Below, piece after piece: positions 1 to 14,287 of a DNA stretch of 17,548 bases; the stretch's first letter is position 1, and every line of letters starts with the position of its first letter. Location: assembly GCA_025289735.1 (NCBI GenBank), contig GCA_025289735.1_4764.3. One strand, 5' to 3'. Origin of the DNA: a phage. The notes under the pieces were generated by a model that worked only from the letters and a program-made list of their open reading frames with translations, was not told where the DNA came from and did not search any database. The position numbers and the translations under genes were made by a program.

Positions 1-36
1 ATACTCGGAACTATAACTAATTTTTGAGGTTACTTT

Positions 37-1527
37 ATGGCAGATTTGAAACATGGATCTACTGTAGGCGGATCTCCCATTTGGACGCAAGGAAACTTGA
101 CGATCCAGCCAGCGGGGGATCAGCTTTTCTACAAAGGTCATAAAATCTATACCGCTTTTGATAAACCTTCGGCTGCCGATTTTGATGCTGTTAGTGCATC
201 CGAAGGTGGCACATTTCAAAAGCAAGTTCATTTCGAGGAAGGTTTAAGCGTAGGTAGCGCATCGGCTGGAGAAACCAAAAAGAACGGGATCTTTAAAGGA
301 AATAGTGATGCGGCTAACTTTGATGGTGTAAGTTGGGGTTTCCATTCGTGGAAATCTATTGGTTTTGTTAATGCTCGTGATGATGTTATCATGGCTTATA
401 TTGACACTACCACAGGTGATTTTAAAACTAAAGGGACTATCGAAGGGACAACCATTAAAGACACAGGTCAACGCGTCTATAGCCCTGTTAATAAACCAAC
501 GAATAATGATTTAGATTTGGTGTCTCGTCGCGGTGATACCCTCACAGGAACATATAATTTAAACACTGTCACTGTTAAACTATCGGTTGATTCGAAATTA
601 ATTGCAAGGGAACGTGATTTAATTAATTTTGATGCGACTAAGATCTATTATGGTAACGTTCTTGATACGTTGGTCTTCCGAAGTAAAGATGAGCCTACCA
701 TTTTTGTTAATGGCAGAGAAGGTCGTTTTTATCACACCAACAATAAACCAACTAAAGCCGATGTTGGGCTAGGCAATGTCACCAATGATGCACAGGTTAA
801 ACGTGCTGGTGATATTATGGTAGGTAACTTGCAAGCGCCTAGAATGTTGGCGACAAACGATCCTGCTGGTCCTAATGAATTGGTTCGTTTGAGCTACTTT
901 GAGAGAAAATCAATGGTAGCAAATCCAACCATCATTGGAAACGTTGATTGGAACACTCTTATTAATCGCGGTATCTATCGTGTGGAAAATGCTGGGTCAG
1001 GTACTAATAAACCGTCTGATAGCTATTATAACGGCGTTTTGATGGTATATCGCCCAGAAGATGCGGTCGGTACTCGTCGAATTGTTCAGGTGTATTATCC
1101 TGAATCTATTGACCATCCGATGTGCTGGCGTTCGTGTTCTAATGAATCATGGACTGCATGGAACTATGTAGATCACCGTAAATTGGCTGATATTCGCTAT
1201 GTTAACGTCACTGGCGATACCATGACAGGACCGTTAACTGTTCCGGCTGCAAACGGTGTTAGAACGGCTAGAGGTGCATATAATGGTGATAACTACTATG
1301 CCGGGTTAAATAGTGCTGACGGCACGGCTATGATTCACCGTATCAGCGATATTAAAGCCACTGAAAAATTGGGTATTACACATGATTCGAAAGCTGTTTT
1401 CGTTAAATCGCGTGGAAATACTCAAGCCACAGACCGCTATGAACTTTACCACGAAGGGCATAAACCTACCCCTGCCGAAGTTGGTGCGGTTCCACTTAAT
1501 GCGGTGATTGATTTTGGTACTTTCTAA
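37..1527 (+). CDS. 36: Long tail fiber protein, gp36-like (496 aa)
   Basis: ATG at 37 with GAGGT 7 nt upstream. N-terminus MADLKHGSTVGGSPIWTQGN resembles my recollection of the T4 gp36/gp37 N-terminal family. Repeated fibre-type motifs (VYSPVNKPTNNDLDL, FYHTNNKPTKADVGLGNV, YHEGHKPTPAEVGA). Sits immediately upstream of the gp37-like gene. Much longer than T4 gp36 (about 220 aa). Confidence 0.75.
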   Translation: MADLKHGSTVGGSPIWTQGNLTIQPAGDQLFYKGHKIYTAFDKPSAADFDAVSASEGGTFQKQVHFEEGLSVGSASAGETKKNGIFKGNSDAANFDGVSWGFHSWKSIGFVNARDDVIMAYIDTTTGDFKTKGTIEGTTIKDTGQRVYSPVNKPTNNDLDLVSRRGDTLTGTYNLNTVTVKLSVDSKLIARERDLINFDATKIYYGNVLDTLVFRSKDEPTIFVNGREGRFYHTNNKPTKADVGLGNVTNDAQVKRAGDIMVGNLQAPRMLATNDPAGPNELVRLSYFERKSMVANPTIIGNVDWNTLINRGIYRVENAGSGTNKPSDSYYNGVLMVYRPEDAVGTRRIVQVYYPESIDHPMCWRSCSNESWTAWNYVDHRKLADIRYVNVTGDTMTGPLTVPAANGVRTARGAYNGDNYYAGLNSADGTAMIHRISDIKATEKLGITHDSKAVFVKSRGNTQATDRYELYHEGHKPTPAEVGAVPLNAVIDFGTF

Positions 1528-1531
1528 TTTT

Positions 1532-1558
1532 AGCGGGGATTATCTCCCCGCTTTTCTA
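1532..1558 (+). terminator. Rho-independent terminator or attenuator after the gp36-like gene
   Basis: Hairpin AGCGGGGA-ttatc-TCCCCGCT directly followed by TTTTCT, 5 nt after the stop codon at 1525..1527. Confidence 0.6.
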
Positions 1559-1597
1559 AATAATATTATTCTAATAACCGTTTAAGGATTTTATAAA

Positions 1598-4500
1598 ATG
1601 GCAGATTTAAGCAGAATCCAATTTAAACGCACTAGCACTAAAGGTCGTAAACCTGATGCTAGTACGATGAATCCGGGGGAATTGGCAATCAACCTTGCGG
1701 ATCAATATCTTCTTACTAAAAATGATTCCGGTGCTATTATCAATTTAAGTTGTCCTCCGGTGTATGACCGCGATGTTACAATGGCGGGTAAGGTTAAAGG
1801 AAATAATTATATTTTAAGCAAAACCGCCAACTATCTGGAAGATCAGACAGCGCGAGATCTTAACTACTTTGGTGCTTTCCGTACCAATGGTCTTGATGGT
1901 TTTCTCGAACTAACGCTAAACGTTCCTCATTCTTCCGGTATTCAACATGGTCGAGGATTTACTTTCCAGTATGGACACCTTGGATCGCGTGTAGAAACTT
2001 ATGGTTATAATAAAGAAGGACAAAAAGCATTTAGTTATAAAATGTATCATGAAGGGGATAAACCAACTCCAGGAGAATTGAACGTCTATAGCAAACAAGA
2101 AGTAGATCGGATGTTCCAAAAGACACTTGATTTTGGAATTGAGTCCGGTTGGTTTAAAATCGCTACAGTATATCTACCACAACAATATGGGCGTAGTGCT
2201 AAAATTAGATTGGTTGGTGGTAATGGTTATAATGTAGGACAGACCGGGCAAGCTAATATTATTGAATTGGTTCTGCGTAGCGGGAATGGAAATCCGGTTG
2301 GTGTTGTGTTTAACGCTTATATGACCATCTGGTATATAGACCAGAAGTTTTGTGCTATTCCTACTGGTGGTGACTCTTATGATATATACGGTAGCTATTC
2401 CGGTCATACTGGATTTGTGTTGGCTGAATACCAGACTAGCCCTGACGTTAACCTGACTTTATATGATAACCCACAATTTATAGGAAGTCAATTACCGGAA
2501 GCTGAAACAAAGTTCGATGCTTATACAATCACTTCATTTAGTACTTATCGCAACCACGGGACATTAAATTTTGGTGCTAATTCTCAAGGCCAATATGACA
2601 TTGAGCATTTGAACGAACAACCGACAAATGCTAAAAAGATGTTGCGTCGCTTCCGTAGTTGTGCTCCTGCCACTATCTGGCATGAGACAGTTGATGATAA
2701 CCAGTATCGTCTTGCTACTGGATACGAAGATACAAATCAGGAATTATTGCTGACAGCAACATCCGGGTTACATGTCAAGAAATTAACATTGGATGGCGGT
2801 GTCACTGGAAATTCTGGTATTGATATTCGTCGAGGACCAAACGAAGCAAGCCATTTTAATTTTATGGATTATCGCACTGGACAAGATGTTCGTAATGGCT
2901 GGTTTGGCTTCGGTGATGGTCAGACCAAAGATTTTATTTGGTGGAACGATAACGGTCAAAACTCATTAAATCTTTTAGAAAACGGTGAATTACAGATTTC
3001 TGGTGGTAAAGGCCAGAAAATTGTAATGAATAGCGAAGTTGCATTATCTGAAAATGCTCGTTTGGCTGTTAGAGGTGGTAATTATGGCGTGATATTCCGT
3101 AATGATGGAACGAACTTTCATCTGCTTACTACCGATTTAAAAGATTCTTTTGGAAATTGGAATAATCGTAGACCATTTAGTTATGACTTTGCCGAAGGTG
3201 GATTGGATCTAGGTGGCACAACGACCGCACGTTGTTTGCATCTGGGAATTGATGGTAGTACCCGTATCGAGGATAACTTAGTTTTCAGGGCGGGATCTCG
3301 TCAATCAATGGACTACTTAGAATTTGTTCATTGGGGGGCAAGTAATACCGGACGTAATAACGTTTTAAGTCTTCGTGACTCAAAAGGATTTTTAGCAGAA
3401 TTTGAACGTAAAGGTGATAACACCATTCAAAATACATTCTTCGGAAGATTTAAAGTCAATGGTGGTTCTAACGCTATTACCGTTAATGCTCCTACTGATT
3501 CCGAGTCTGTTTATGTGAAAGGTACTTGTAACGATGTAGATAACTGGTATATAGGTAAAGGTGGTGCTGATAATGCATTAGCCTTTTATAGCTATAAGTC
3601 TAATGCGGCTATTTATCTCACAAATAATGGTGAGGTTTTATTAGCCCCACAAAACACCGCAATTGTTAACGTCAATCGCGACCGTATACACATCAACGGT
3701 ACACAGTGGGTGGCAAATCAGCCACATGGCTGGGGTAATCAGTGGCTGTCCGAAGCGCCTATATTCGTTGATTTTGGTACTGGTATTCCAAATGATACCT
3801 ATATGCCAATCATTAAAGCCCGTAGCCAAATTACTGGCGGTTATGCAACTAAGGCCGATTTTGGTATATATCGTCATGGTACTGATACTTGGGGTGATGC
3901 TGTTATTCGTGTCGGTTCTGCCGAAAGTGGTGATAGTAATCATCCAAACGCAATTTATACTTTCCGGGCAAATGGCGATTTTAAAGCTCCGGCTGGCCTC
4001 CGTGCTGGTGTTAACTTGGGTGTTGGTACTGATCCTGTATTGGGTGGACATTCTATTGCTATCGGTGATAATGACACTGGCTTAGTGTGGGGTGGTGATG
4101 GTCGTATTAACATGTTTGCTAACGGACAGCATATTGCATCATGGGGTACGATGTATCAAGAACACTCAGGACTATGGGGAAGTCATGGTGGTTTGTGGAC
4201 AGAAGTCGATAAAGCGATTATTTCTCATGGTCATCTAGTCCAGGCGAATGACAACTATTCTACATATGTTCGTGACATTTATATCCGTTCGGATATTCGC
4301 GTGAAGAAAGACCTAGTTAAATTTGAAAATGCATCTAAGACACTTTCAAAAATTAACGGTTACAAATATCTTCAAAAGCGCGGGACCAATGAAGACGGTA
4401 GCGAACGTTGGGAAGAAAACGCTGGTTTGATTGCTCAGGAAGTTCAAGCTATTTTGCCGGAATTGGTTGAAGGCGATCCAGATAGCGAAAACCTTCTTCG

Positions 4501-4636
4501 TTTGAACTATAACGGTGTTATTGGTTTAAATACTGCGGCAATCAACGAACACACCGAAGAAATTGCACTTCTTAAAGAAGAAAATAAACTTCTTCGTGAT
4601 CGTCTTGCTGCAATTGAAGCAAAATTATTTGGTTAA
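1598..4636 (+). CDS. 37: Long tail fiber distal subunit, gp37-like (1012 aa), with C-terminal intramolecular chaperone domain
   Basis: ATG at 1598 with AAGGA upstream. N-terminus MADLSRIQFKRTSTKGRKPDASTMNPGELAINLADQYLLTKNDSGAIINL parallels recalled T4 gp37 (MATLKQIQFKR...GELAINL...TKDDSGNIIDL). Length matches T4 gp37 (about 1026 aa). Gly/Asn/Thr-rich fibre composition. C-terminal about 114 aa begin with the S-D-x-R-x-K motif. Confidence 0.9.
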   Translation: MADLSRIQFKRTSTKGRKPDASTMNPGELAINLADQYLLTKNDSGAIINLSCPPVYDRDVTMAGKVKGNNYILSKTANYLEDQTARDLNYFGAFRTNGLDGFLELTLNVPHSSGIQHGRGFTFQYGHLGSRVETYGYNKEGQKAFSYKMYHEGDKPTPGELNVYSKQEVDRMFQKTLDFGIESGWFKIATVYLPQQYGRSAKIRLVGGNGYNVGQTGQANIIELVLRSGNGNPVGVVFNAYMTIWYIDQKFCAIPTGGDSYDIYGSYSGHTGFVLAEYQTSPDVNLTLYDNPQFIGSQLPEAETKFDAYTITSFSTYRNHGTLNFGANSQGQYDIEHLNEQPTNAKKMLRRFRSCAPATIWHETVDDNQYRLATGYEDTNQELLLTATSGLHVKKLTLDGGVTGNSGIDIRRGPNEASHFNFMDYRTGQDVRNGWFGFGDGQTKDFIWWNDNGQNSLNLLENGELQISGGKGQKIVMNSEVALSENARLAVRGGNYGVIFRNDGTNFHLLTTDLKDSFGNWNNRRPFSYDFAEGGLDLGGTTTARCLHLGIDGSTRIEDNLVFRAGSRQSMDYLEFVHWGASNTGRNNVLSLRDSKGFLAEFERKGDNTIQNTFFGRFKVNGGSNAITVNAPTDSESVYVKGTCNDVDNWYIGKGGADNALAFYSYKSNAAIYLTNNGEVLLAPQNTAIVNVNRDRIHINGTQWVANQPHGWGNQWLSEAPIFVDFGTGIPNDTYMPIIKARSQITGGYATKADFGIYRHGTDTWGDAVIRVGSAESGDSNHPNAIYTFRANGDFKAPAGLRAGVNLGVGTDPVLGGHSIAIGDNDTGLVWGGDGRINMFANGQHIASWGTMYQEHSGLWGSHGGLWTEVDKAIISHGHLVQANDNYSTYVRDIYIRSDIRVKKDLVKFENASKTLSKINGYKYLQKRGTNEDGSERWEENAGLIAQEVQAILPELVEGDPDSENLLRLNYNGVIGLNTAAINEHTEEIALLKEENKLLRDRLAAIEAKLFG
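4292..4633 (+). other. Predicted C-terminal intramolecular chaperone domain of gp37 (peptidase S74-like), putative autocleavage after Ser898
   Basis: Sequence ...YIRS|DIRVKKDLVKFENASKTLSKINGYKYL...LLKEENKLLRDRLAAIEAKLFG. The S-D-x-R-x-K start and coiled-coil C-terminal tail match the pattern I recall for endosialidase / T5 pb1-type self-cleaving chaperone domains. Confidence 0.6.
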
Positions 4637-4644
4637 TTTAAATG

Positions 4645-4662
4645 GCGGGGAGAAATCCCCGC
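4645..4662 (+). other. Stable stem-loop (GCGGGGA-GAAA-TCCCCGC) between gp37 and the downstream gene, no U-tract
   Basis: 7-bp GC-rich stem with a GNRA-type GAAA tetraloop 9 nt after the gp37 stop. Followed by TAAGGATCTT (the RBS of the next gene) rather than a T-run, so more likely an RNA stability or processing element than a terminator. Confidence 0.5.
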
Positions 4663-4674
4663 TAAGGATCTTAA

Positions 4675-4971
4675 ATGGGCTATTGGGTAAGTAATGAACA
4701 AGACACTAAAATAGATGCTGTAAAATGGCATGTTTTTGATATTCCTAATGGATATGTTCCCGGTCGTGCTGGTGTTGCCGTTTTGCGGCATACCGCTCGT
4801 GATGGTTGGGGCGATATGCATATTTCCGTTGACGGTGTGGTCGCCGCGCGTCGTCGTGGTGGTGGGGATTGGGGATTTACGGTTAATGCGTTTGTTCCTG
4901 CTGGATGTACTGTCACCTTTGGTCATGGGGGTGTCGGTGGTATTGAATACTTTAAATTTATGGAGTTTTAA
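4675..4971 (+). CDS. Small Gly/Trp-rich protein, paralog A of a tandem triplet (98 aa)
   Basis: ATG with AAGGA 6 nt upstream. Shares MGYWV...FDIPNG...GGGD...G-T-T pattern with the two downstream ORFs. Confidence 0.65.
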   Translation: MGYWVSNEQDTKIDAVKWHVFDIPNGYVPGRAGVAVLRHTARDGWGDMHISVDGVVAARRRGGGDWGFTVNAFVPAGCTVTFGHGGVGGIEYFKFMEF

Positions 4972-4973
4972 TT

Positions 4974-5279
4974 ATGGCTGGTTGGGTTGCTGGAAGAATG
5001 GCTAATGCTATTAGCATTTATGCTAATGGCGGCTGGTTTGGTATCCCTAATGGTTGGGTTACTGATTCATGCGGTATTGTGTCTGTTCATGCCGAAGCCG
5101 TTGGCGGTGGAGGTGACTTGGACGCCGAATTATATGTAAACGGTACTCTAGAATCAGGTCATCACGCTGGTAATGCCGGAAGTTGGGGAGCTAGTTCTTT
5201 AGTTGGTGTTGGTGCTACTGTCAGTTTTAGCATTGGTAAAGGAAGTTTAAACCACTTCCAATTTAGGAGAATGCATTAA
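4974..5279 (+). CDS. Small Gly/Trp-rich protein, paralog B of a tandem triplet (101 aa)
   Basis: ATG 2 nt after the stop of paralog A, GGAG 8 nt upstream. Motifs GWFGIPNGW and GGGGD shared with paralogs A and C. Confidence 0.65.
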   Translation: MAGWVAGRMANAISIYANGGWFGIPNGWVTDSCGIVSVHAEAVGGGGDLDAELYVNGTLESGHHAGNAGSWGASSLVGVGATVSFSIGKGSLNHFQFRRMH

Positions 5280-5578
5280 TGGGATATTGGGTGTATGGCG
5301 TTTTAGACAATAAAGCCGGTAAAGCGAATCAGGGATGGTTTGATATTCCTAACGGTTGGACAGCCGACGCTTTCGGTACGGTTTCATTTGGTGCTCATTC
5401 TTCTGGTGGTGGTGGTGACTCAGAATTGCTTTTGCATGGCTTTTGTGTGTCTGGAAGTCATAAGGGTCATGATTGGGGACAGATCCATTCTTGTATTGTG
5501 CCGCAGGGAGTAACGATCACGGTAACTACAAACAGGGGCATTTCCCATCTTCGTTATAGACGCCAGAGCAACCGTTAA
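5279..5578 (+). CDS. Small Gly/Trp-rich protein, paralog C of a tandem triplet (99 aa)
   Basis: Start overlaps the stop of paralog B (TAATG). AGGAGA 8 nt upstream. Motifs MGYWV, GWFDIPNGW, GGGGD. Confidence 0.65.
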   Translation: MGYWVYGVLDNKAGKANQGWFDIPNGWTADAFGTVSFGAHSSGGGGDSELLLHGFCVSGSHKGHDWGQIHSCIVPQGVTITVTTNRGISHLRYRRQSNR

Positions 5579-5629
5579 AAAGAATTAAGGAAACCTCCCA
5601 CGGAAGGGAACTACTAAGGAGAAACGGCT

Positions 5630-5869
5630 ATGGTCTATAATATCGTCATTGGTGCTTTGTCTAATTTCGGAATGAAACTATTGTCAAAGTTAATTAGTGA
5701 AAAGATGCTCACTAAAATCTTCTTCTATTGCGCTCGTCGTCTTGCGGCTTATACCAATACGCCAATTGATGATCGTTTTGTGGAAGAACTTTATAAGGAG
5801 TTTAATAAAGATCAGTTAGAAGATAGCAACGAGCAAAATAAAAATAGTGATAGTCAAGTACCTAAATAA
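5630..5869 (+). CDS. Hypothetical protein (79 aa) between the fibre module and the holin
   Basis: ATG with AAGGAG 8 nt upstream. Hydrophobic/amphipathic N-terminus and acidic, low-complexity C-terminus. No family recognised. Confidence 0.5.
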   Translation: MVYNIVIGALSNFGMKLLSKLISEKMLTKIFFYCARRLAAYTNTPIDDRFVEELYKEFNKDQLEDSNEQNKNSDSQVPK

Positions 5870-5902
5870 GAGTACACTGTCATAGTTATCTTAGGGCATT
5901 AT

Positions 5903-6559
5903 ATGCAAGTTTCTGAAAAAGGGAAAGACTTTGCTATCTCAAATGTCCTGCGCGCTATTTTCACAACTAAAAGCACGGAGTTGCTCGTACTTCGTGTTTT
6001 TGCTGCCGTCGTGTTGTCCATATTAGCATTTGTCGTTTATAGTAAAAACGAGTTATTTGCCTTGTATAAAGAGACTCGTTATGAGACTTATGCTCACGTT
6101 CTCCAGGTAGAGAAAGACCGCAATTTTGATAATGCAGCACAGGAGCAGTTACAGATAGTTCATGTGTCGGCTGATGCCGATTTTTCTGCTGTTTTTAGTT
6201 TTCGTCCGAAAAACCTAAACTATTTTGTTGATTTGGTGGCATATGAAGGAAAGCTACCGCATACAATCGATGAAAAAAATTTAGGTGGATTCCCTATCAA
6301 TAAAACGAGTGAAGAATATCGTAGGCATCTTTTAGGTAAATCATATTTTACCGATAAAGATTTCCAGTATATTCCATCAAGAGAAAAGAAATTAGAGAGT
6401 ATCGATATAGGGTTTATGTATTCTTGCCCTATATTCAATCTCGATAATGTCTATTCTGGTAGTATCGCCATTGCGTGGAAGAATAAACCGGATATTGACA
6501 TTGAGAATTTAGATACTCTTTGCAATCAATCTGCCAGAATCCTCGGAAGGATTAGATAA
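5903..6559 (+). CDS. t: Holin, T4 t-type (218 aa)
   Basis: Same length as T4 holin T. Single TMD (LVLRVFAAVVLSILAFVVY) after a short N-terminal region, then a large C-terminal domain. Several blocks match my recollection of T4 T: EQLQIVH, ADFSAVxSFRPKNLNYFVD, AYEGKLP, MYSCPxFNLDNxYxG, ARILGR. Confidence 0.9.
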   Translation: MQVSEKGKDFAISNVLRAIFTTKSTELLVLRVFAAVVLSILAFVVYSKNELFALYKETRYETYAHVLQVEKDRNFDNAAQEQLQIVHVSADADFSAVFSFRPKNLNYFVDLVAYEGKLPHTIDEKNLGGFPINKTSEEYRRHLLGKSYFTDKDFQYIPSREKKLESIDIGFMYSCPIFNLDNVYSGSIAIAWKNKPDIDIENLDTLCNQSARILGRIR

Positions 6560-6564
6560 CTTAA

Positions 6565-6597
6565 AGGGGAAGCCTTTCGGCCTCCCCTTCTTTTTAT
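6565..6597 (+). terminator. Rho-independent terminator after holin t
   Basis: 10-bp stem AGGGGAAGCC / GGCCTCCCCT (one mismatch), loop TTTC, followed by TCTTTTTA. Confidence 0.7.
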
Positions 6598-6842
6598 TGG
6601 AGCATAGAAGCCCCTGAATCACATTTTGACGCTGTATGATGAAAACAGGTAGCGTACCAGTCATCGGCTTGTTTGTCTTCGTCAGAAAACGCGTAATTGC
6701 GTTGTATGCCGTTTTCTACTTTGACCAGTGCAATAGCTGTTTCTGGAAGATCAATCAATCGGACAAAATCACCGTCTTCCCACTCCACACGGGCAATATC
6801 ATAGCCCATCTCAAAGTATACAATCGCTTGTTCTAATTTCAT
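6594..6842 (-). CDS. Hypothetical early protein (82 aa)
   Basis: ATG overlaps the upstream stop (ATGA). Last gene of the minus-strand array, ending at the t terminator. Confidence 0.5.
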   Translation of the reverse strand: MKLEQAIVYFEMGYDIARVEWEDGDFVRLIDLPETAIALVKVENGIQRNYAFSDEDKQADDWYATCFHHTASKCDSGASMLQ

Positions 6843-7162
6843 TCTGGAAACTTCCCGTAAACATTCTCTGCCAGCTTACGTGCATCTTTTACAATATCTT
6901 TCATGTAATGACTATAATTTTTAGCTAGATCAATGATGCAATCAACAAAGAAGTAATAGCGTCGCAGTGCTACCAGCTCAACATCTTCAAGATGACCATT
7001 TTCTCCAATCGCTGAAATATGTTTAAATTCCTTTCGGATCGCGTCCATCGCTACATTAACTTCTTTTATAATATCTTTCGTATTATATGCACCTCGACTA
7101 ATCAAAATTTTGGTTAGGTCTTCTGCTTTTTCGTGAAAGTTGTCAATTTCAAACTCGATCAT
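6839..7162 (-). CDS. Hypothetical early protein (107 aa), paralog of 7277..7609
   Basis: Track start at 7168 is a GTG lying inside the SD GAGGTGA. ATG at 7160..7162 with that SD 5 nt upstream is the likelier start. C-terminus ...ARKLAENVYGKFPE resembles the neighbour's ...ARIMTENIFGKF. Confidence 0.55.
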   Translation of the reverse strand: MIEFEIDNFHEKAEDLTKILISRGAYNTKDIIKEVNVAMDAIRKEFKHISAIGENGHLEDVELVALRRYYFFVDCIIDLAKNYSHYMKDIVKDARKLAENVYGKFPE

Positions 7163-7276
7163 AATCACCTCTCATGGTTTAACGCTGTTGTGTCAACATT
7201 TTTTCGTGGTTTGCTAATTCTATACATTGTAATAGCATAACCAGTGCAATTTTCAATGATTCATCATCTTTCATAA

Positions 7277-7609
7277 TCAAAATTTACCGAAAATATTCTC
7301 TGTCATAATTCTTGCTTCGTCGATTATTTTCGTCATGTTCATGGTGTAGTTATGATCATTTAGTGCCTTAATAACAACGAGCAAGGAATCTAAAAACACT
7401 CGATACCGTGTATATTCTACGCTATTTGTGAATACCGATGTTTTCTCGACTTTATCGATCAGATAGCCTAAAACCGATAGCGCCTCGTTTACTTCCCTTG
7501 TTACTTTATCGGCGCTAAAAAGCACCGGATAAAGGCGCGGTGTGATTAACCGCGCTGCCTCTTTCAATTCGGTCGCTTTCCATGATTCATATTTGTCATA
7601 GTTAAACAT
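7277..7609 (-). CDS. Hypothetical early protein (110 aa), paralog of 6839..7162
   Basis: ATG with AAGGAGA 8 nt upstream. Shared blocks EVN-A, RY--F-D, ARxxxENxxGKF with the downstream neighbour. Confidence 0.55.
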   Translation of the reverse strand: MFNYDKYESWKATELKEAARLITPRLYPVLFSADKVTREVNEALSVLGYLIDKVEKTSVFTNSVEYTRYRVFLDSLLVVIKALNDHNYTMNMTKIIDEARIMTENIFGKF

Positions 7610-7621
7610 TGTATAATCTCC

Positions 7622-7954
7622 TTACAGATGAAAACCTGTTACAATCACCGCATCGATCATACCGCTAGGAATAAACGGTTCACCCTCTTTTATTTCAACT
7701 TTGAATTGATGCCATTTCGCTAATACTTCTTCCGGTACACCCAGCGATTCGGCGTCTGCTTTAGTTTCATCCATAATCCAACTAGGCTGCATGAGAGCAT
7801 AGTTTACATAGTCCATTTCTGGGGTCATGTCATCAATGTTAATATATTTGCAGTTGACGCGTTTCAGAATTTCAAATTCTTTATTATCAACCTGTACCAT
7901 GTACAATTCGGTAGTTTCTGGAATCAGTTCCCATACAATCAGTACATTTTTCAT
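7622..7954 (-). CDS. Hypothetical early protein (110 aa)
   Basis: ATG with GAGGTGA upstream, overlapping the stop of the preceding gene. Tight operon packing. Confidence 0.55.
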   Translation of the reverse strand: MKNVLIVWELIPETTELYMVQVDNKEFEILKRVNCKYINIDDMTPEMDYVNYALMQPSWIMDETKADAESLGVPEEVLAKWHQFKVEIKEGEPFIPSGMIDAVIVTGFHL

Positions 7955-7962
7955 AGTTCACC

Positions 7963-8331
7963 TCACTTAACAAAGATTTTCTTTAATGCTTTCAGGATCG
8001 TTGCTTCCGGCGCTTCTTCCGGTGGAGGAAGCAATTCTACCACTTCCTCTTCCAACTCGATATAGTCTACCAGATATTCTACATAGAATGCAAGTGCTTC
8101 CATGAAATTAGATGCTACATCCGATTCACCACACGCGCCTACATGCATTGTATAAACATCACTGCGATCAAGTTTGTGGATACTGCCTAGATAGTTTCGG
8201 TTATACCAGACTTCCCACACTTTCAGCTTTCCGGTTTTGGTTGCTGTTTTATAATCGGTTTCGTAGTGGTGCAATTGACGTTGCAGATCATTGATAATAA
8301 CACATTTTTCGTAATTGTTTTGAATTTCCAT
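7963..8331 (-). CDS. Hypothetical early protein (122 aa), acidic Pro-rich C-terminus
   Basis: ATG with GAGGAT upstream. C-terminus ELEEEVVELLPPPEEAPEA. Confidence 0.55.
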   Translation of the reverse strand: MEIQNNYEKCVIINDLQRQLHHYETDYKTATKTGKLKVWEVWYNRNYLGSIHKLDRSDVYTMHVGACGESDVASNFMEALAFYVEYLVDYIELEEEVVELLPPPEEAPEATILKALKKIFVK

Positions 8332-8341
8332 GATGTAATCC

Positions 8342-8533
8342 TCACTTATCGTTAAGAAGATCTAAAACTTTCTGTCGTACTTTGTCAATATTAGTTGATT
8401 CAAAAACTGTACGGTATCCCCAGCTTTGACCGTATGAGCGGTTGCAATCTCCATATCCCCATTGTTCAACCTGATAGTATTCAAGGAATGGATGCTGCCG
8501 AACTATGATACCATCGCGGTTAAAAATTACCAT
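8342..8533 (-). CDS. Hypothetical early protein (63 aa)
   Basis: ATG with GAGGA 7 nt upstream. Trp/Tyr/Gly-rich small protein. Confidence 0.45.
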   Translation of the reverse strand: MVIFNRDGIIVRQHPFLEYYQVEQWGYGDCNRSYGQSWGYRTVFESTNIDKVRQKVLDLLNDK

Positions 8534-8556
8534 AATATAATCCTCACGTCAACAAC

Positions 8557-8838
8557 TTATTTTCGGTTATACTTCTGCCACTTTCGGTAATACTGCTTGT
8601 AATATTGTTTAATGTTTGGTGGTTCGTCACTATACATGTTATCAACCATCATGTCAATAAGACCTTCCGGTGTTTGATAGTTACCCGCTCGAATGAGTTC
8701 CTTAATCAAAAGATCTTGCGTCGCTTTATACTTGACAATAACAACTGTCTTTTCTGCCTTTCCAATTCCGATCCGGTCGTTAGCTCTCATAGCATCCCAC
8801 CAATCTTTTTTAAACTTCATGTTGTTAAATTTCATCAT
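8557..8838 (-). CDS. Hypothetical early protein (93 aa), basic Tyr/Lys-rich C-terminus
   Basis: Two consecutive ATG codons with AAGAAGGG upstream, overlapping the stop of the 266-aa gene. Confidence 0.5.
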   Translation of the reverse strand: MMKFNNMKFKKDWWDAMRANDRIGIGKAEKTVVIVKYKATQDLLIKELIRAGNYQTPEGLIDMMVDNMYSDEPPNIKQYYKQYYRKWQKYNRK

Positions 8839-9639
8839 TTAACCCTTCTTATATTCGCAAACATATTGAGTACCATAATCATAGCTAATGCGACCTTTCT
8901 CGATGACTTCAAAGCGGATTTCATCGTTTTCCCCTACCCACATTTTGTACTCGTTGAAGTATCCTGCTACATCCGGTTTGCTCATACCAACAACCATATT
9001 TTTATATTGTTTGCTGCGTGTCAGATTTGATTTAAACACTTCGCGCTCATCAACATATACGAAAGAAGACAATTCACCTTCGGTCATGGTCATTTTCAGC
9101 TTGCCGCCCTTGTTGCCATAAGTAGAGTTGCCATACAATGGATCTTTGCGGCTGTCTGTTTCAATACCATCAATGATTTTCCATGTAAATTTTGCAATGC
9201 ACTGGTAAGTGATAGATCCAGAGATTTTCTCTTCTTTCTTCTGTTCTTCCACCACTTTTTCTTCCTGTTTCGGTTGTTCTTCTTCAACCTTCACAGAAGT
9301 CTCTGAATCGCTTTCTGACGCGGTTTCTTCTTTAGGTAATACATTCATCAAGTTTTGGATTTGAGCGTGATATACAGCCTCCAGTGGCTGAATTTTCCCG
9401 ATATTGATCATTGTATCACGAACAGTTTTATTCCAGTTGCGTTGCTCTTGTTTCAGAGACGGATCAATCTTAACAGCCTTAACATATACTTCATGAAGTT
9501 TAGAATCAAGTGCGGAGATAGACTCATTAGCACAAATAAACTTCTCTGATTTGGTAGTAGCTTTAGCGCAATCAAAGGACGCAGCATTAGCACCGAAAGC
9601 AGTAGCAGAAAGAACGATAGCAGCGATAATGTTTTTCAT
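8839..9639 (-). CDS. Secreted protein with N-terminal LprI/DUF1311-like domain, charged linker and C-terminal beta-rich domain (266 aa)
   Basis: ATG with GAGGAA 8 nt upstream, directly downstream of promoter cassette P3. Signal peptide MKNIIAAIVLSATAFGANA|AS. Then FDCAKATTKSEKFICANESISALDSKLHEVY...QEQRNWNKTVRD, fitting the DUF1311 pattern as I recall it (C..A.T..E..IC...LD..L..Y...Q..W...RD). E/K-rich linker. C-terminal domain with two Cys and an SGSITY motif. Confidence 0.7.
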   Translation of the reverse strand: MKNIIAAIVLSATAFGANAASFDCAKATTKSEKFICANESISALDSKLHEVYVKAVKIDPSLKQEQRNWNKTVRDTMINIGKIQPLEAVYHAQIQNLMNVLPKEETASESDSETSVKVEEEQPKQEEKVVEEQKKEEKISGSITYQCIAKFTWKIIDGIETDSRKDPLYGNSTYGNKGGKLKMTMTEGELSSFVYVDEREVFKSNLTRSKQYKNMVVGMSKPDVAGYFNEYKMWVGENDEIRFEVIEKGRISYDYGTQYVCEYKKG

Positions 9640-9673
9640 AATATATTCCTCAGTGTTTTGTCTTGATGGTAGT

Positions 9674-9702
9674 ATGTTACTACTCCCTTAATCCGGTGTC
9701 AA
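9674..9702 (-). promoter_or_regulatory. Sigma70-like early promoter P3 (-35 TTGACA, 17-nt spacer, -10 TAACAT)
   Basis: Minus-strand sequence aaaaagtagTTGACA-N17-TAACAT, about 35 nt upstream of the ATG at 9639. A-rich upstream element. Shares a conserved leader with the other cassettes. Confidence 0.6.
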
Positions 9703-9709
9703 CTACTTT

Positions 9710-9865
9710 TTAAATTTCTTCTACAGTAAAGTCTTCAATGTTGTTGTGCTCGGAGAACGTTGCCAGACCAGCATTCCATGCATCATCCTCAGAGAAGAAT
9801 ACACCGTAACGTTCATATCCCTTAGCGCCTTCAAATTTAACCATTAATTTGTGAGTATGTTTCAT
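9710..9865 (-). CDS. Hypothetical early protein (51 aa), acidic
   Basis: ATG at 9863..9865 with AAGGAG 7 nt upstream, downstream of P4. The track ORF start at 9898 lies inside the promoter. Confidence 0.5.
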   Translation of the reverse strand: MKHTHKLMVKFEGAKGYERYGVFFSEDDAWNAGLATFSEHNNIEDFTVEEI

Positions 9866-9896
9866 TTTGATTCTCCTTAGTTGTCTTGATGAGTTC

Positions 9897-9925
9897 ATTA
9901 TAGGGGATCACCGATCCCCTGTCAA
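9897..9925 (-). promoter_or_regulatory. Sigma70-like early promoter P4 (-35 TTGACA, palindromic 17-nt spacer, -10 TATAAT)
   Basis: Minus-strand GTTGACA-GGGGATCGGTGATCCCC-TATAAT. The spacer is a perfect inverted repeat containing two GATC sites. Confidence 0.6.
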
Positions 9926-9933
9926 CAACTATT

Positions 9934-10146
9934 TTAATGTTTACCCACGCGTAAATTAATGCGCATTTTCTGCATAGCCATGATCTGGTTTACTGCTTCT
10001 TCTTTACGTTCTTGCGTGATAACGTGACCAGATTCCGCAAACTCTCCCGCAACTTCTTCTACAATCTCGCGAACTTGAGAACGTCCAAAGATGCGGTTTC
10101 CTTCGTAGCTCATAAATTCAGTCACTACTTGCTCAATAGATTTCAT
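9934..10146 (-). CDS. Hypothetical early protein (70 aa)
   Basis: ATG with AAGGAG 7 nt upstream, downstream of P1. Confidence 0.55.
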   Translation of the reverse strand: MKSIEQVVTEFMSYEGNRIFGRSQVREIVEEVAGEFAESGHVITQERKEEAVNQIMAMQKMRINLRVGKH

Positions 10147-10178
10147 GTGATTCTCCTTCTTTCGTTTGGTATGGGAGT

Positions 10179-10207
10179 ATATTACTACTCCCGTTTCTTT
10201 ACGTCAA
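10179..10207 (-). promoter_or_regulatory. Sigma70-like early promoter P1 (-35 TTGACG, 17-nt spacer, -10 TAATAT)
   Basis: Minus-strand ctaaaaaccaGTTGACG-N17-TAATAT followed by the conserved leader ATACTCCCATACCAAAC and the RBS. Confidence 0.6.
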
Positions 10208-10214
10208 CTGGTTT

Positions 10215-10457
10215 TTAGAAATTTTTCGCTTCTTCTTCGGTAATCATAACCGCGCATTCGTGCATAACTTTGAAAACCGGATCAATCATGTCGAATGCTT
10301 CGCGGGACAGTTTACGAGAAGCGATTTTGATTGCTTCAACGTCTTCGACTACAGGAACAAAAACAGTTTTCAGTTCATCGAGAACGGCAGCTTCTTTTTC
10401 ATTCAGGAAGATCCCAGCGTCGTACAGTGCAACTTCGATAACATTAACTTTAACCAT
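10215..10457 (-). CDS. Hypothetical early protein (80 aa), acidic
   Basis: ATG at 10455..10457 with GGAGGAAA upstream, downstream of P2. The track N-terminal extension is a translation of the promoter. Confidence 0.55.
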   Translation of the reverse strand: MVKVNVIEVALYDAGIFLNEKEAAVLDELKTVFVPVVEDVEAIKIASRKLSREAFDMIDPVFKVMHECAVMITEEEAKNF

Positions 10458-10491
10458 TTTTATTTCCTCCAGTTCGTTTCGGTATGGGAGT

Positions 10492-10520
10492 ATAATACTA
10501 CCGATGACCTTTGGCGTCAA
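10492..10520 (-). promoter_or_regulatory. Sigma70-like early promoter P2 (-35 TTGACG, 17-nt spacer, -10 TATTAT)
   Basis: Minus-strand acaaaaaactaGTTGACG-N17-TATTAT followed by the conserved leader ATACTCCCATACCGAAAC. Overlaps the 3' end of the upstream gene. Confidence 0.6.
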
Positions 10521-10722
10521 CTAGTTTTTTGTTATTTTCGTGAAAATTTTTCGTCGCCTCATGTGCTTTTCGCTGGGCTTCTTGTTGTGCTTGCTGGCGT
10601 GCTGCCTCTTGCGATGCCATAACAGACGCATTTGCAGCAGTTACAGCCGCGACCATCGCTGCGGTATTAGCATTTACCGTACATGCACTAGCCAGCAAAG
10701 CAATTGCAATCATTTTCTTCAT
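10498..10722 (-). CDS. Small secreted protein or lipoprotein (74 aa) with Gln/Ala-rich helical mature region
   Basis: ATG with AAGGGG 6 nt upstream, overlapping the upstream stop (ATGA). N-terminus MKKMIAIALLASAC has a lipobox-like LASAC; an alternative signal peptidase I site lies at VNA|NT. Mature part QEAARQQAQQEAQRKAHEATK. Confidence 0.6.
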   Translation of the reverse strand: MKKMIAIALLASACTVNANTAAMVAAVTAANASVMASQEAARQQAQQEAQRKAHEATKNFHENNKKLVDAKGHR

Positions 10723-10889
10723 AGTTTCCCCTTTATGTTATCTTCGACCTTCATCCATTCCGCGTATTCTTGTGCGGCTACTTTCGGATTTAAGCCGTCT
10801 TCGTACATTGCATCAAGTAATTCTTTGTCGGTGGGCTTATACCCTAGATAAGCCTCCACCTGATTTTTCCAAATTTTATACCAGTTCAT
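10719..10889 (-). CDS. Hypothetical early protein (56 aa)
   Basis: Internal ATG (MNWYKIWKNQ...) with GGTGAT 4 nt upstream. The longer track ORF would overlap the upstream gene by 65 nt. Confidence 0.45.
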   Translation of the reverse strand: MNWYKIWKNQVEAYLGYKPTDKELLDAMYEDGLNPKVAAQEYAEWMKVEDNIKGKL

Positions 10890-10893
10890 ATTA

Positions 10894-11166
10894 TCACCAG
10901 TCAAGAGCGCGTGTCTCTGCGTCTTCCCATGCTTGGTCCATAACAGCCTTGAAAACATATTCTAAAGTATCATCTTTAGAGAATCCGAAGATTTTAGACG
11001 GAATATCTTCAATTGCTACTCCCGCAACTTCTGCATTACGCGCTTGGCAGTAATGCAACTCTAAGTTATCGAGATAGCGACCGCCTAATTTCTCCATATC
11101 ATCCCAGCATTTCCAGTAACCTACTTTATTTGCAATTGCTAACACTTTGCTGTTTTCGTTGCTCAT
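10894..11166 (-). CDS. Hypothetical early protein (90 aa)
   Basis: ATG at 11164..11166 with AAGGAGA 7 nt upstream, first gene downstream of P5. Confidence 0.55.
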   Translation of the reverse strand: MSNENSKVLAIANKVGYWKCWDDMEKLGGRYLDNLELHYCQARNAEVAGVAIEDIPSKIFGFSKDDTLEYVFKAVMDQAWEDAETRALDW

Positions 11167-11197
11167 CTTTGATTCTCCTTTTGTTTGGTATGTGTGT

Positions 11198-11226
11198 ATT
11201 ATGCGAGGCTGGATTCGTGAAGTCAA
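11198..11226 (-). promoter_or_regulatory. Sigma70-like early promoter P5 (-35 TTGACT, 17-nt spacer, -10 CATAAT)
   Basis: Minus-strand attttaaaaagttGTTGACT-N17-CATAAT followed by leader ATACACACATACCAAAC and the RBS. Lies immediately downstream of the terminator at 11236..11267. Confidence 0.6.
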
Positions 11227-11235
11227 CAACTTTTT

Positions 11236-11267
11236 AAAATAAAAAAGCCGACCACAAGGATCGGCTT
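11236..11267 (-). terminator. Rho-independent terminator (minus strand) after the 131-aa gene
   Basis: Minus-strand hairpin AGCCGA ... TCGGCT (6 bp, 9-nt loop) followed by TTTTTTATTTT. Confidence 0.6.
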
Positions 11268-11276
11268 AATAATCAG

Positions 11277-11672
11277 TTACTTACTAAATTTCTTTTTGGC
11301 TTCGTCTACTGCATGAGATGCCAGTACCGCCGCCGCATGTGCACTTTTATCTGTGTTGCAGAGAACACCCAGATAAACATCACGCCAAAGTTTAATCATC
11401 TCGTAGATCATATCAATATCATTTTCTTGTTTGTTGGCGATGCTATTCGTCGTTATCTGGTAAGGTAACGGCTTAATCTGTACTGGTTCCGCCATCGGGC
11501 TAATAGGTTTCGGATCAGTCATAATAGGTGCTGTTGTGGGTGATGTTTTCCATACGTCATTATTCCACGGTTTAATCGTTGTATCGTAAAGTTTATAAGG
11601 ATTTTTGTCTGGGTCAACCATCCATGCATGATGAGTACCCAAACCATTTGAAGTGATGCGTCGTTCAGTCAT
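11277..11672 (-). CDS. Hypothetical early protein (131 aa)
   Basis: ATG with GGAGGGAAAGT upstream. Start overlaps the 3' end of the upstream gene by 8 nt. Confidence 0.55.
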   Translation of the reverse strand: MTERRITSNGLGTHHAWMVDPDKNPYKLYDTTIKPWNNDVWKTSPTTAPIMTDPKPISPMAEPVQIKPLPYQITTNSIANKQENDIDMIYEMIKLWRDVYLGVLCNTDKSAHAAAVLASHAVDEAKKKFSK

Positions 11673-11868
11673 ACTTTCCCTCCAAAAATTCTTTCATCAA
11701 ATAATCTATCGTTGCTCTGTGTTCTGGTGTGTTTGTTATCTCTGCTAACTTGTTCAGAGATTCAATAGTGATTCGGTTGGCTTCTTCCATAGTCTCAACG
11801 ACCATCGGTACAATCTTTTTATTGTTGTACACGAAAGCCACATAACCGCCTTCTGGATATTCTTTCAT
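11665..11868 (-). CDS. Hypothetical early protein (67 aa)
   Basis: ATG at 11866..11868 with AAGAAGGG upstream. The track start at 11874 is a TTG. Immediately downstream of gene 52. Confidence 0.5.
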   Translation of the reverse strand: MKEYPEGGYVAFVYNNKKIVPMVVETMEEANRITIESLNKLAEITNTPEHRATIDYLMKEFLEGKYD

Positions 11869-11870
11869 AA

Positions 11871-13235: not shown

Positions 13236-13242
13236 CTTCACC

Positions 13243-13605
13243 TCATACACGCTTACAAATCACATTCTTTACTTTATCAGATTTATCAGCCCAATCCAAT
13301 AGCCATTTTAACGGAAGGATTGACACAATAAACGGGGCAGCAATCAAAGCAAACATGATACACCTGATAATCAGGAAAACGCAAGTGACAAAACTAGCGA
13401 TAGTGATCCCGACAAAACAAAATACCATAGAAAACAGAGTAATGATATAGAAAGGCCAGAATACCCACTCCCGCATCTTAACGCCTTTGTATTCTCTGAA
13501 TTGCTTAAAATCAACAAACAACTCTCGGATAGACGAGTACAGGACCGAAAAATCATCTTTCATTGCTCTGAATGAGCAATCTTCTATTTTAGAATGACCT
13601 AGCAT
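13243..13605 (-). CDS. Small membrane protein (120 aa, two predicted TM helices)
   Basis: ATG with AAGGCGG upstream. Hydrophobic segments WVFWPFYIITLFSMVFCFVGITIASFV and CVFLIIRCIMFALIAAPFIVSILPL. Confidence 0.55.
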   Translation of the reverse strand: MLGHSKIEDCSFRAMKDDFSVLYSSIRELFVDFKQFREYKGVKMREWVFWPFYIITLFSMVFCFVGITIASFVTCVFLIIRCIMFALIAAPFIVSILPLKWLLDWADKSDKVKNVICKRV

Positions 13606-13607
13606 TA

Positions 13608-13901: not shown

Positions 13902-13920
13902 AATGTATTCCCTCTAAGAA

Positions 13921-13939
13921 AGGCCGCGCAAAGCGGCCT
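13921..13939 (-). terminator. Intergenic hairpin, possible weak terminator or RNA stabiliser (minus strand)
   Basis: AGGCCGC-gcaaa-GCGGCCT stem-loop between two minus-strand genes. On the minus strand it is followed by TTCTT and then the RBS of the next gene. Confidence 0.35.
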
Positions 13940-13946
13940 ATGTTGA

Positions 13947-14273: not shown

Positions 14274-14287
14274 AATTAATTCCTCTG

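What the first reader, a model, noticed from the sequence alone, without database searches (positions are those of the whole stretch)
1532..4662. The same GCGGGGA/TCCCCGC stem reused after gp36 and after gp37 with different loops and contexts
After gp36 the stem has a TTATC loop and a T-run, so it is terminator-like. After gp37 the identical stem has a GAAA tetraloop and no T-run. This suggests a recurring RNA element tuning the relative expression or stability of the fibre genes and the downstream triplet, rather than simple termination.
Basis: seen in the sequence. Interest (0 to 1): 0.4.

Follow-up and report, generated by a model that had tools for sequence, protein, structure and literature searches.

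The report
Repeated G-rich RNA hairpins flanking gene 37
The two hairpins are real, but they belong to a known, genome-wide family of G-run/C-run stem-loops in RB49-like (Krischvirus) phages that most likely act as leaky terminators and mRNA-stability elements, so the finding is largely ordinary.

Summary
GCGGGGA-TTATC-TCCCCGC lies at 1533..1551, followed by TTTTCT. GCGGGGA-GAAA-TCCCCGC lies at 4645..4662, followed directly by the Shine-Dalgarno sequence of the first triplet gene. The window is the distal tail-fibre region of a Krischvirus (RB49-like T4-type phage).

The shared stem is not private to gene 37. In the complete genome of the relative G2248, CGGGG-loop-CCCCG occurs 11 times against about 0.1 expected. 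The exact core CGGGGAGAAATCCCCG also follows gp18 and forms the -35/-10 spacer of three early promoters. These are the published PeSL stem-loops (Arbiol 2010). Neither window hairpin has a sigma-70 promoter, so both are promoter-less copies of the stem-loop part.

GNRA and UUCG tetraloops in G2248 are always in the sense orientation (16:0). The only stem changes at hairpin 2 give G-U pairs on the + strand. Both point to function in RNA.

Loop identity is not conserved. Loops flip to their exact reverse complement between strains, for example GAAA to TTTC in UPWr_E1.

No late promoter lies downstream of the one before gene 36, so both hairpins must be read through.

Best reading: hairpin 1 is a leaky intrinsic terminator and hairpin 2 is a U-tract-less attenuator or stability hairpin. 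Interest is low to moderate.

The parts
1532..1552 (+). Hairpin 1: AGCGGGGA / TTATC / TCCCCGCT, 5 nt after the gene 36 stop codon. It is a G-run/C-run stem-loop of the Krischvirus family.
   Evidence: -14.8 kcal/mol. The stem is present in all 17 relatives examined. It is annotated as a terminator in G37-3, GEC-3S and G2248.
1552..1557 (+). Short interrupted U-tract (TTTTCT) following hairpin 1.
   Evidence: It is invariant in relatives.
1487..1610 (+). Near-invariant island of about 125 nt: the last 40 nt of gene 36, hairpin 1, the intergenic region with the gene 37 SD (AAGGA 1584..1588), and the first 13 nt of gene 37. It lies between two mosaic segments whose allele types are re-assorted among phages.
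1598..4636 (+). Gene 37 (long tail fibre distal subunit, 1012 aa, C-terminal S74 intramolecular chaperone), flanked by the two hairpins.
4643..4664 (+). Hairpin 2: (UG)GCGGGGA / GAAA / TCCCCGC(UA), 6 nt after the gene 37 stop codon. The core 4645..4662 is identical to a PeSL spacer stem-loop and to the post-gp18 hairpin of G2248.
   Evidence: (-17.1 kcal/mol). It is conserved in all 6 carriers of the triplet module.
4664..4677 (+). SD AAGGA (4664..4668) abutting the 3' arm of hairpin 2, and the ATG (4675..4677) of the first triplet gene. There is no U-tract.
   Evidence: TAAGGAT is invariant in 6 sequences.
4675..5578 (+). Three paralogous genes of about 100 aa each (the triplet). They form one module with the gp37 C-terminus and hairpin 2.
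6564..6589 (.). Bidirectional terminator hairpin after holin gene t (GGGGAAGCC/TTTC/GGCCTCCCC, then a T-run). It is the likely end of the late transcription unit that starts at the gene 36 promoter.
   Evidence: It is annotated as a terminator in relatives.

Best explanation
Both hairpins are promoter-less members of the G(n)-loop-C(n) stem-loop family that is scattered through Krischvirus (RB49-like) genomes. The same family supplies the stem-loop part of the published PeSL promoter/terminator cassettes. They act in the late mRNA made from the promoter in front of gene 36.

Hairpin 1 (8 bp plus UUUUCU) is an intrinsic terminator that must be leaky. It ends and 3'-protects a share of gene 36 transcripts and lets the rest continue into gene 37.

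Hairpin 2 (9 bp, GNRA loop, no U-tract, touching the SD of the first triplet gene) cannot terminate in the canonical way. It most likely lowers or buffers expression of the triplet relative to gp37. It would do so as a U-tract-independent attenuator, a barrier to 3' exonucleases, or a protective 5' structure after processing, while leaving the SD single-stranded.

Shown here: the structures, the family membership, the RNA-sense bias and the need for read-through. Inferred: termination, attenuation and stabilisation.

The identical stems reflect family membership. CGGGGA is the commonest stem core in the G2248 genome. They are not a gene-37-specific device.
For: Family membership:
- In G2248, CGGGG-N(3-10)-CCCCG occurs 11 times against 0.08 in simulated genomes. 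GCGGGG..CCCCGC occurs 7 times against 0.02.
- CGGGGA is the inner stem core of 9 of 59 strong hairpins.
- The identical core CGGGGAGAAATCCCCG follows gp18 and gp37. It is also the spacer between TTGAC and TATAAT (or GTATACT in one case) in three early promoters.
- Arbiol 2010 (PMC2839356) and Comeau 2014 (PMC4122927) describe these RB49/phi1 stem-loops as polyG..polyC, 'GN-loop-CN'.
- GCGGGG hairpins after gp18 and gp19 are also present in RB49, JK32 and phiS.

RNA level:
- 13 GNRA and 3 UUCG tetraloops are in the sense orientation and none in antisense in G2248. RB49 gives 3:0.
- Hairpin 2 is 100% paired in 6 sequences. The only two changes give G-U on the + strand.
- The spacer between the arms varies from 3 to 7 nt. 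This fits a hairpin and not a double-stranded DNA binding site.

Read-through:
- There is no TATAAATA and no ATAAATA on the + strand of the window. In G2248 the only late promoters nearby are before genes 34 and 36.

Precedent for attenuation without a U-tract:
- The RB49 PeSL211/210 stem-loop (AGGGGAT-CACGT-ATCCCCT followed by ATACTACAC) cut lacZ expression about as much as rrnB T1, according to PMC2839356.

Other support:
- Hairpin 1 is annotated as a terminator in G37-3, GEC-3S and G2248, and hairpin 2 in G2248.
- Hairpin 2 travels with the gp37 C-terminus plus triplet module into an unrelated backbone (L016).
Against: There are no transcript 3' ends, coverage data or half-life data for any Krischvirus.

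There is no compensatory covariation. The stems are almost invariant, which says nothing for or against pairing.

Loop orientation at hairpin 2 is flipped in UPWr_E1 (UUUC), so the GNRA loop is dispensable at least there.

gp36 and gp37 are probably needed in equal amounts. This is inferred from T4 fibre stoichiometry, which is my own knowledge. A terminator between them therefore has no obvious dosage rationale.

A 7/8 match to the late promoter box (TCTAAATA, 1555..1562) directly after hairpin 1 could mean that gene 37 has its own weak promoter and that hairpin 1 need not be leaky.
Confidence: 0.62

Rival explanations
1. The hairpins are recombination sites. The dispersed identical stems, like PeSLs, mediate modular shuffling. 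The two copies flanking gene 37 would allow the adhesin gene, or the triplet, to be excised or exchanged as a cassette, for example through mini-circles.
For: [quoted passage not shown]
- Hairpin 1 lies in a 125-nt invariant island between two segments whose allele types are re-assorted among phages.
- Its loop is hypervariable, with 10 variants in 17 genomes. Variants match loops of other family copies. For example, GCGGGGATTATCCCCGC in L018/L021 equals the G2248 copy at 118766.
- The JK32 gp18-19 hairpin carries the loop of the neighbouring gp19-20 hairpin.
- phiS has an extra ORF between gp18 and gp19 that is bracketed by two such hairpins.
Against: - Crossover intervals that can be placed lie at the island edges (1486..1494 and about 1610), not at the hairpin.
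- The large swaps of the receptor-binding part break inside gene 37 (about 1725, 2115, 3408, 3540, 3926, 4062, 4577) and at about 5565..5576, never at either hairpin.
- Hairpin 2 exists only in triplet-type modules. gp38-type phages have a different stem (GGGGGC) after gene 37, and RB49-type phages have none.
- A 7-bp stem is very short homology.
Confidence: 0.15
2. The two are unrelated generic GC-rich terminators that share a stem by coincidence.
For: Strong hairpins in an AT-rich genome draw on few G/C-rich stems. Given the empirical stem spectrum of G2248, two random strong hairpins share their inner 6-mer with probability 0.035.
Against: That probability is this high only because a true family exists. 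There are 11 CGGGG..CCCCG copies against 0.08 expected, with identical 16-18-nt cores including the loop at five sites. In the window itself, no shuffle of 200 gave a match.
Confidence: 0.05
3. Hairpin 2 is a processing site. One version has RegB cutting at the GGAG of GGGGAGAAA. The other has RNase E cutting at the AAUUU just upstream, which would leave the hairpin as a protective 5' end for the triplet mRNA.
For: GGAG is present in hairpin 2 and in the PeSL copies. AAUUU (RAUUW-like; this RNase E consensus is from my own knowledge) precedes both hairpins. Relatives encode RegB-like proteins.
Against: - RegB needs an unpaired GGA and is inhibited by secondary structure (PMC3014915). Here the GGA is in the stem.
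- The UPWr_E1 flip removes GGAG.
- G37-3, KFS-EC and L016 have AAUUG instead of AAUUU.
- The AU-rich motif carries little information in this genome.
Confidence: 0.1
4. The palindrome is a double-stranded DNA binding site for a dimeric protein (a regulator or nuclease).
For: It is a perfect 7+7 inverted repeat and the stem sequence is conserved without covariation.
Against: - The spacer between half-sites varies from 3 to 7 nt among orthologous copies.
- Loop tetranucleotides follow the direction of transcription 16:0.
- Stem changes are G-U compatible only in RNA.
Confidence: 0.03

Closest known systems
Stem-loop component of PeSLs (promoter-early stem-loops) of RB49/phi1 (Arbiol et al. 2010, PMC2839356; Comeau et al. 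2014, PMC4122927)
   Same: Same genus and same G(n)-loop-C(n) architecture. The hairpin 2 core is identical in sequence to the spacer stem-loop of three early promoters in G2248. Both are intergenic and followed by an SD and a start codon. A PeSL stem-loop without a U-tract was reported to block downstream expression.
   Different: There are no -35/-10 boxes around either hairpin. They lie in the late tail-fibre operon on the late strand, not in hyperplastic regions of early ORFans. No crossover could be mapped to them.
Rho-independent (intrinsic) transcription terminators
   Same: GC-rich stem, short loop, position just after a stop codon. Hairpin 1 has a U-tract and is predicted as a terminator by ARNOLD in deposited genomes.
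   Different: Hairpin 2 has no U-tract. Hairpin 1 has only UUUUCU and must let transcription through, because no promoter follows it.
Stable tetraloop hairpins of T4 mRNAs (the CUUCGG hairpin was first found in T4 mRNA; PMC4371310) and GNRA tetraloops
   Same: Very stable small hairpins between cistrons of a T4-type phage. GAAA and UUCG loops are strongly biased to the sense strand.
   Different: The loop is not fixed. Orthologous copies carry GAAAA or the flipped UUUC.
REP (repetitive extragenic palindromic) elements of enterobacteria (comparison from my own knowledge)
   Same: Dispersed, near-identical intergenic palindromes that form mRNA hairpins. REPs are known to stabilise upstream mRNA and to modulate expression within operons.
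   Different: These are much shorter (18-22 nt), are phage-borne, have no known cognate transposase, and share no sequence with REPs. Membership was not tested beyond the negative Rfam scan.

Membership tests
Intrinsic (Rho-independent) terminator | GC-rich stem of at least 5 bp with a loop of 3-8 nt just downstream of a gene | tested here: met
   Both hairpins have 7-9 bp with 6 G-C pairs, loops of 5 and 4 nt, and lie 5-8 nt after stop codons.
Intrinsic (Rho-independent) terminator | U-rich tract immediately 3' of the stem | tested here: inconclusive
   Hairpin 1 has UUUUCU, which is short and interrupted. The simple scan only picks up a shortened version of it. Hairpin 2 has UAAGGAUC, so the feature is not met on the + strand.
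Intrinsic (Rho-independent) terminator | Transcript 3' ends at the U-tract in vivo or in vitro | not testable with these tools
   I found no transcriptome or 3'-end data for Krischvirus.
PeSL cassette (Arbiol 2010) | Strong sigma-70-like -35/-10 promoter overlapping or adjacent to the stem-loop | tested here: not met
   There is no + strand promoter-like site at 1500..1600 or 4600..4700. The flanks read TTTTA/TTTTCT and AAATG/TAAGGA, not TTGACA/TATAAT.
PeSL cassette (Arbiol 2010) | Stable stem-loop of polyG followed by polyC (GN-loop-CN) | tested here: met
   The stems are GCGGGGA/TCCCCGC. The core is identical to the PeSL spacers at G2248 26067, 45286 and 141284.
PeSL cassette (Arbiol 2010) | Location in hyperplastic regions, flanking early ORFans that differ between close relatives | tested here: not met
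   Both lie in the late tail-fibre operon. Hairpin 2 does border an accessory module (the triplet) that is absent from RB49.
GNRA tetraloop hairpin | Four-base loop G-N-R-A on the RNA strand, kept across orthologues | tested here: inconclusive
   Hairpin 2 has GAAA in 4 of 6 sequences, GAAAA in one and UUUC in one. The genome-wide sense bias of 13:0 argues for selection. Hairpin 1 has no GNRA loop.
Any Rfam family | Match to a curated covariance model | tested here: not met
   No match covers either hairpin at E <= 1.

The most novel reading that the evidence does not exclude
The CGGGGA-type stem-loops are a dispersed, recombinogenic repeat family: promoter-less relatives of PeSLs that also populate late operons. 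Their loops are repeatedly inverted and copied between paralogous sites. Their presence on both sides of gene 37 would let the host-range gene, or the neighbouring accessory triplet, be looped out and exchanged between co-infecting phages, as PeSL mini-circles do for ORFans.
Probability: 0.12. Interest if true: 0.6.

Novelty: new member of a known kind. Interest (0 to 1): 0.27.

Why it matters
If the reading is right, the finding adds little that is new in kind. It extends the known RB49/phi1 stem-loop family from early hyperplastic regions into late structural operons: after gp18, gp19, gp36 and gp37.

It also gives two usable facts. First, the tetraloop orientation bias (16:0) argues that these hairpins work in RNA. 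Second, the loops flip and vary far faster than their surroundings.

For tail-fibre engineering and host-range work on Krischvirus therapeutic phages, two practical points follow. Genes 37 to t appear to depend on read-through of these hairpins. Hairpin 2 belongs to the gp37 C-terminus plus triplet module and should be moved with it.

Tried and rejected
- Rfam scan of the whole window at E <= 1: nothing at either hairpin.
- Exact-pattern and protein-guided scans of IMG/VR and of metagenome contigs gave only six extra loci, so the comparative set stayed small.
- Covariation test on hairpin 2: no double changes, so it is uninformative.
- RegB cleavage site: rejected, because the GGA is paired and the motif is lost in UPWr_E1.
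- Double-stranded DNA operator: rejected because of variable spacer length and strand-specific loops.
- Hairpins as the breakpoints of gene 37 module swaps: BLAST breakpoints lie elsewhere. The finer alignment puts hairpin 1 inside a conserved linker but puts the crossovers at the linker edges.
- Hairpin 2 as an in-situ duplication of hairpin 1: not supported. Similarity does not extend beyond the stem and the TAAGGAT SD, and hairpin 2 travels with the triplet module into a non-Krischvirus backbone.
- Own late promoter for gene 37: only TCTAAATA (7/8) is present. C at that position is typical of Aeh1 and not of RB49-type late promoters. This is left open at low probability.
- Literature search for Krischvirus transcript data: none found.
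Full report
**What the window is.** Megablast places the window in the genus Krischvirus (RB49-like T4-type phages), at 85-96% identity over the shared parts. The gene order is as follows:
- gene 36 at 37..1527;
- gene 37 at 1598..4636, with a C-terminal Peptidase_S74 chaperone domain;
- three paralogous ORFs of about 100 aa at 4675..5578;
- a homologue of RB49 ORF251w/dc5 at 5630..5869;
- holin t at 5903..6559;
- early genes on the minus strand after that.

The late promoter of gene 36 (TATAAATA in G37-3) is cut by the left end of the window.

**Check of the observation.** The pattern GCGGGGA-N(3-8)-TCCCCGC occurs exactly twice, at 1533..1551 and 4645..4662, both on the + strand. No shuffle of 200 gave a match. 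Hairpin 1 has a TTATC loop and is followed by TTTTCT. Hairpin 2 has a GAAA loop and is followed directly by TAAGGAT (the SD) and by the ATG at 4675. Both fold as RNA into the expected hairpins, at -14.8 and -17.1 kcal/mol, and better than all 200 shuffles.

**The stem is a genome-wide family.** I assembled the complete genome of the relative G2248 from four fetched stretches and searched it.
- GCGGGG-N(3-10)-CCCCGC occurs 7 times and CGGGG-N(3-10)-CCCCG 11 times. Genomes simulated with the same dinucleotide content gave means of 0.02 and 0.08.
- CGGGGA is the commonest inner stem core, in 9 of 59 perfect hairpins with at least 6 bp and at least 5 G/C.
- Oriented by gene strand, the exact core CGGGGAGAAATCCCCG of hairpin 2 occurs five times. 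It follows gp18, it follows gp37, and it forms the spacer between TTGAC and TATAAT (GTATACT in one case) in three sigma-70-type early promoters.

That last arrangement is the PeSL of Arbiol et al. 2010. [quoted passage not shown] Comeau et al. 2014 call the stem-loop 'GN-loop-CN'. GCGGGG hairpins after gp18 and gp19 are also present in RB49, JK32 and phiS.

The two hairpins of the finding therefore share a stem because both belong to this family. Neither has -35/-10 boxes, so they are stand-alone stem-loops and not PeSLs.

**Evidence that they act in RNA.** Among perfect-stem tetraloop hairpins of G2248, 13 carry GNRA and 3 carry UUCG when read in the direction of the local genes. None carries either when read in antisense. 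A 20-kb stretch of RB49 gives 3:0. The stems are palindromic and read the same on both strands, so only the loop reports the strand, and it follows transcription.

At hairpin 2, all 48 stem cells in 6 sequences pair. The only two changes (A-U to G-U and G-C to G-U) keep pairing only in the + strand RNA. There is no compensatory double change, so classical covariation support is absent.

The spacer between the arms ranges from 3 to 7 nt among orthologues. This fits a hairpin and argues against a fixed-geometry DNA binding site.

**The loops are not conserved.** At hairpin 1, the stem and the 46-nt downstream intergenic region are practically invariant in 17 genomes. The loop, however, has 10 forms: TTATC, TTCTC, TAA, TTA, TTC, GAA, GATAA, GATTAT, ATTTC and TGAGATT. 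Three pairs are exact reverse complements: TTATC/GATAA, TAA/TTA and TTC/GAA. TTATC is the majority form, in 38 phage records, and GATAA is found in one.

At hairpin 2, the loop is GAAA in the window, G2248, KFS-EC and L016. It is GAAAA in G37-3 and the exact flip TTTC in UPWr_E1. The unrelated hairpin after gene 37 of gp38-type phages flips too (AAC/GTT).

Neighbouring hairpins of other families are stable across the same genomes. These are the terminator after gp35, the terminator after t, and the GAAA hairpin after gp34.

I infer loop inversion by template switching at perfect palindromes. Such templated mutation at quasi-palindromes is established for T4 (my own knowledge; Ripley 1982). Copying between paralogous hairpins may also occur. 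The JK32 gp18-19 hairpin has the GAAGT loop of the neighbouring gp19-20 hairpin. The L018/L021 hairpin 1 is identical to the G2248 copy at 118766.

The consequence for the finding is that the TTATC and GAAA loops are not what defines the two elements.

**Read-through is required.** The window has no TATAAATA on either strand and no ATAAATA on the + strand, and the 7-mer is depleted (1 occurrence against 6.9 expected). In G2248 the only late promoter boxes in this region precede genes 34 and 36. Unless non-canonical promoters exist, genes 37, the triplet, ORF251w and t are all transcribed from the gene 36 promoter through both hairpins, as far as the bidirectional terminator at 6564..6589.

The one candidate promoter is TCTAAATA at 1555..1562, directly after hairpin 1. 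A C at that position is characteristic of Aeh1 late promoters and rare in RB49-type ones.

**Mechanism.** Hairpin 1 has the anatomy of an intrinsic terminator with a short, interrupted U-tract. It is annotated as a terminator in three deposited genomes. Because gp37 is indispensable, it must be partial.

Hairpin 2 lacks a U-tract and its 3' arm touches the SD. A family member that also lacks a U-tract is the RB49 PeSL211/210 stem-loop, which is followed by ATACTACAC. It was reported to reduce lacZ expression about as much as rrnB T1. Attenuation by hairpin 2 is therefore plausible. Protection of the gp37 message against 3' exonucleases, or of a processed triplet message at its 5' end, is equally compatible with the data. 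None of this is shown here, and I found no transcript data for the genus.

**Hairpin 2 belongs to a module.** Only four of 50,697 phage records carry the triplet: G2248, UPWr_E1, G37-3 and KFS-EC, the last with remnants. All of them have hairpin 2 plus TAAGGAT between gene 37 and the first triplet gene.

An IMG/VR contig (L016) has a different gene 37 5' part, a different upstream hairpin and a different downstream gene. It carries the same gp37 C-terminus, hairpin 2 and triplet. The stem and SD form a fully conserved island between flanks that are about 80% identical.

**Recombination reading.** At BLAST resolution, the breakpoints between the window and its relatives lie inside gene 37 and at about 5565..5576, not at the hairpins. 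A finer alignment shows that hairpin 1 sits in the middle of a near-invariant island of about 125 nt (1487..1610). This island separates two segments whose allele types are re-assorted. RB49 is 76% identical to the window on the left and 98-100% on the right. KFS-EC and JSE are 96-98% on the left and 82-85% on the right. Where a crossover interval can be narrowed, it lies at the island edges (1486..1494 or about 1610).

So recombination uses the conserved linker, and the hairpin may contribute. The data do not single it out, however, and the model of a gene 37 cassette between two identical stems has little support.

**Verdict.** The recurring-RNA-element idea is right in outline. But the element is a member of a known, genome-wide stem-loop family and not a tail-fibre-specific regulator, and its loops are interchangeable. 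I classify it as a new member of a known kind, of low to moderate interest.

Noticed in passing
window 4675..5578: The three ORFs after gene 37 are paralogues (28-30% identity, shared motif FDIPNGWV...GGGGD) with no Pfam match. ORF1 is found in only 4 of 50,697 phage records plus one IMG/VR contig. They occupy the slot where other Krischvirus carry a gp38 adhesin (MIZ4, kvi, Skers, phiS) or nothing (RB49). A model built from only 3 sequences (pLDDT 67) is a beta jelly-roll with weak matches (E > 0.01) to CBM6/35 modules, lectins and C1q/TNF heads. A heterotrimeric cap on the gp37 trimer is conceivable but untested.
   Followed up: partly
L026 (phage phiS) 90..785: phiS has a 199-aa ORF inserted between gp18 and gp19, with only weak zinc-ribbon hints. 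The ORF is preceded by its own GGGGGAG-GTCAA-CTCCCCC hairpin and followed by the resident GCGGGGA-GAAAA hairpin. This is a hairpin-ORF-hairpin cassette in a late region, reminiscent of PeSL-flanked ORFans.
   Followed up: partly
L025 (phage JK32) 90..714: The gp18-19 hairpin of JK32 has the loop GAAGT, which other phages carry in the neighbouring gp19-20 hairpin. The JK32 gp19-20 hairpin has TTAT. This looks like exchange between paralogous hairpins about 550 nt apart.
   Followed up: no
window 11245..11267 (- strand): The terminator AAGCCGATCCTTGTGGTCGGCTT plus T-run is 22/23 identical to the terminator that follows gene 35 in relatives, just outside the window on the other strand. This is a second case of a re-used hairpin.
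   Followed up: no
window 9897..9925 (- strand): A textbook PeSL: a perfect TTGACA-N17-TATAAT promoter whose spacer is the stem-loop AGGGGATC-GGT-GATCCCCT.
   Followed up: partly
window 1555..1562: TCTAAATA (7/8 of the T4 late promoter box) lies directly 3' of hairpin 1 and 36 nt before the gene 37 ATG. It is invariant in all relatives. It could be a weak late promoter that forms a terminator-promoter pair.
   Followed up: partly
G2248 genome (L012-L015): Among 59 strong perfect hairpins, 33 have GGGG in the 5' arm and only 2 have CCCC. This is a strong G-first, C-second polarity that holds for genes on either strand.
   Followed up: no
window 1..17548, + strand: The late promoter core ATAAATA is absent from the + strand and depleted overall (1 occurrence against 6.9 expected), as if spurious late promoters were selected against.
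   Followed up: no
window 14112..14204 (- strand): A weak Rfam hit to the ribosomal S15 leader (25.5 bits, gathering score 39.5, E = 0.025). It is most likely chance.
   Followed up: no
window 5565..5600 and L002 6016..6050: The right-hand junction of the triplet module is the short shared string AAAAAGAATTAAGGAAA. In RB49 this string is the very end of gene 37. The weak hairpin that follows it (TCCC-ACGGAA-GGGA) folds no better than shuffles.
   Followed up: partly
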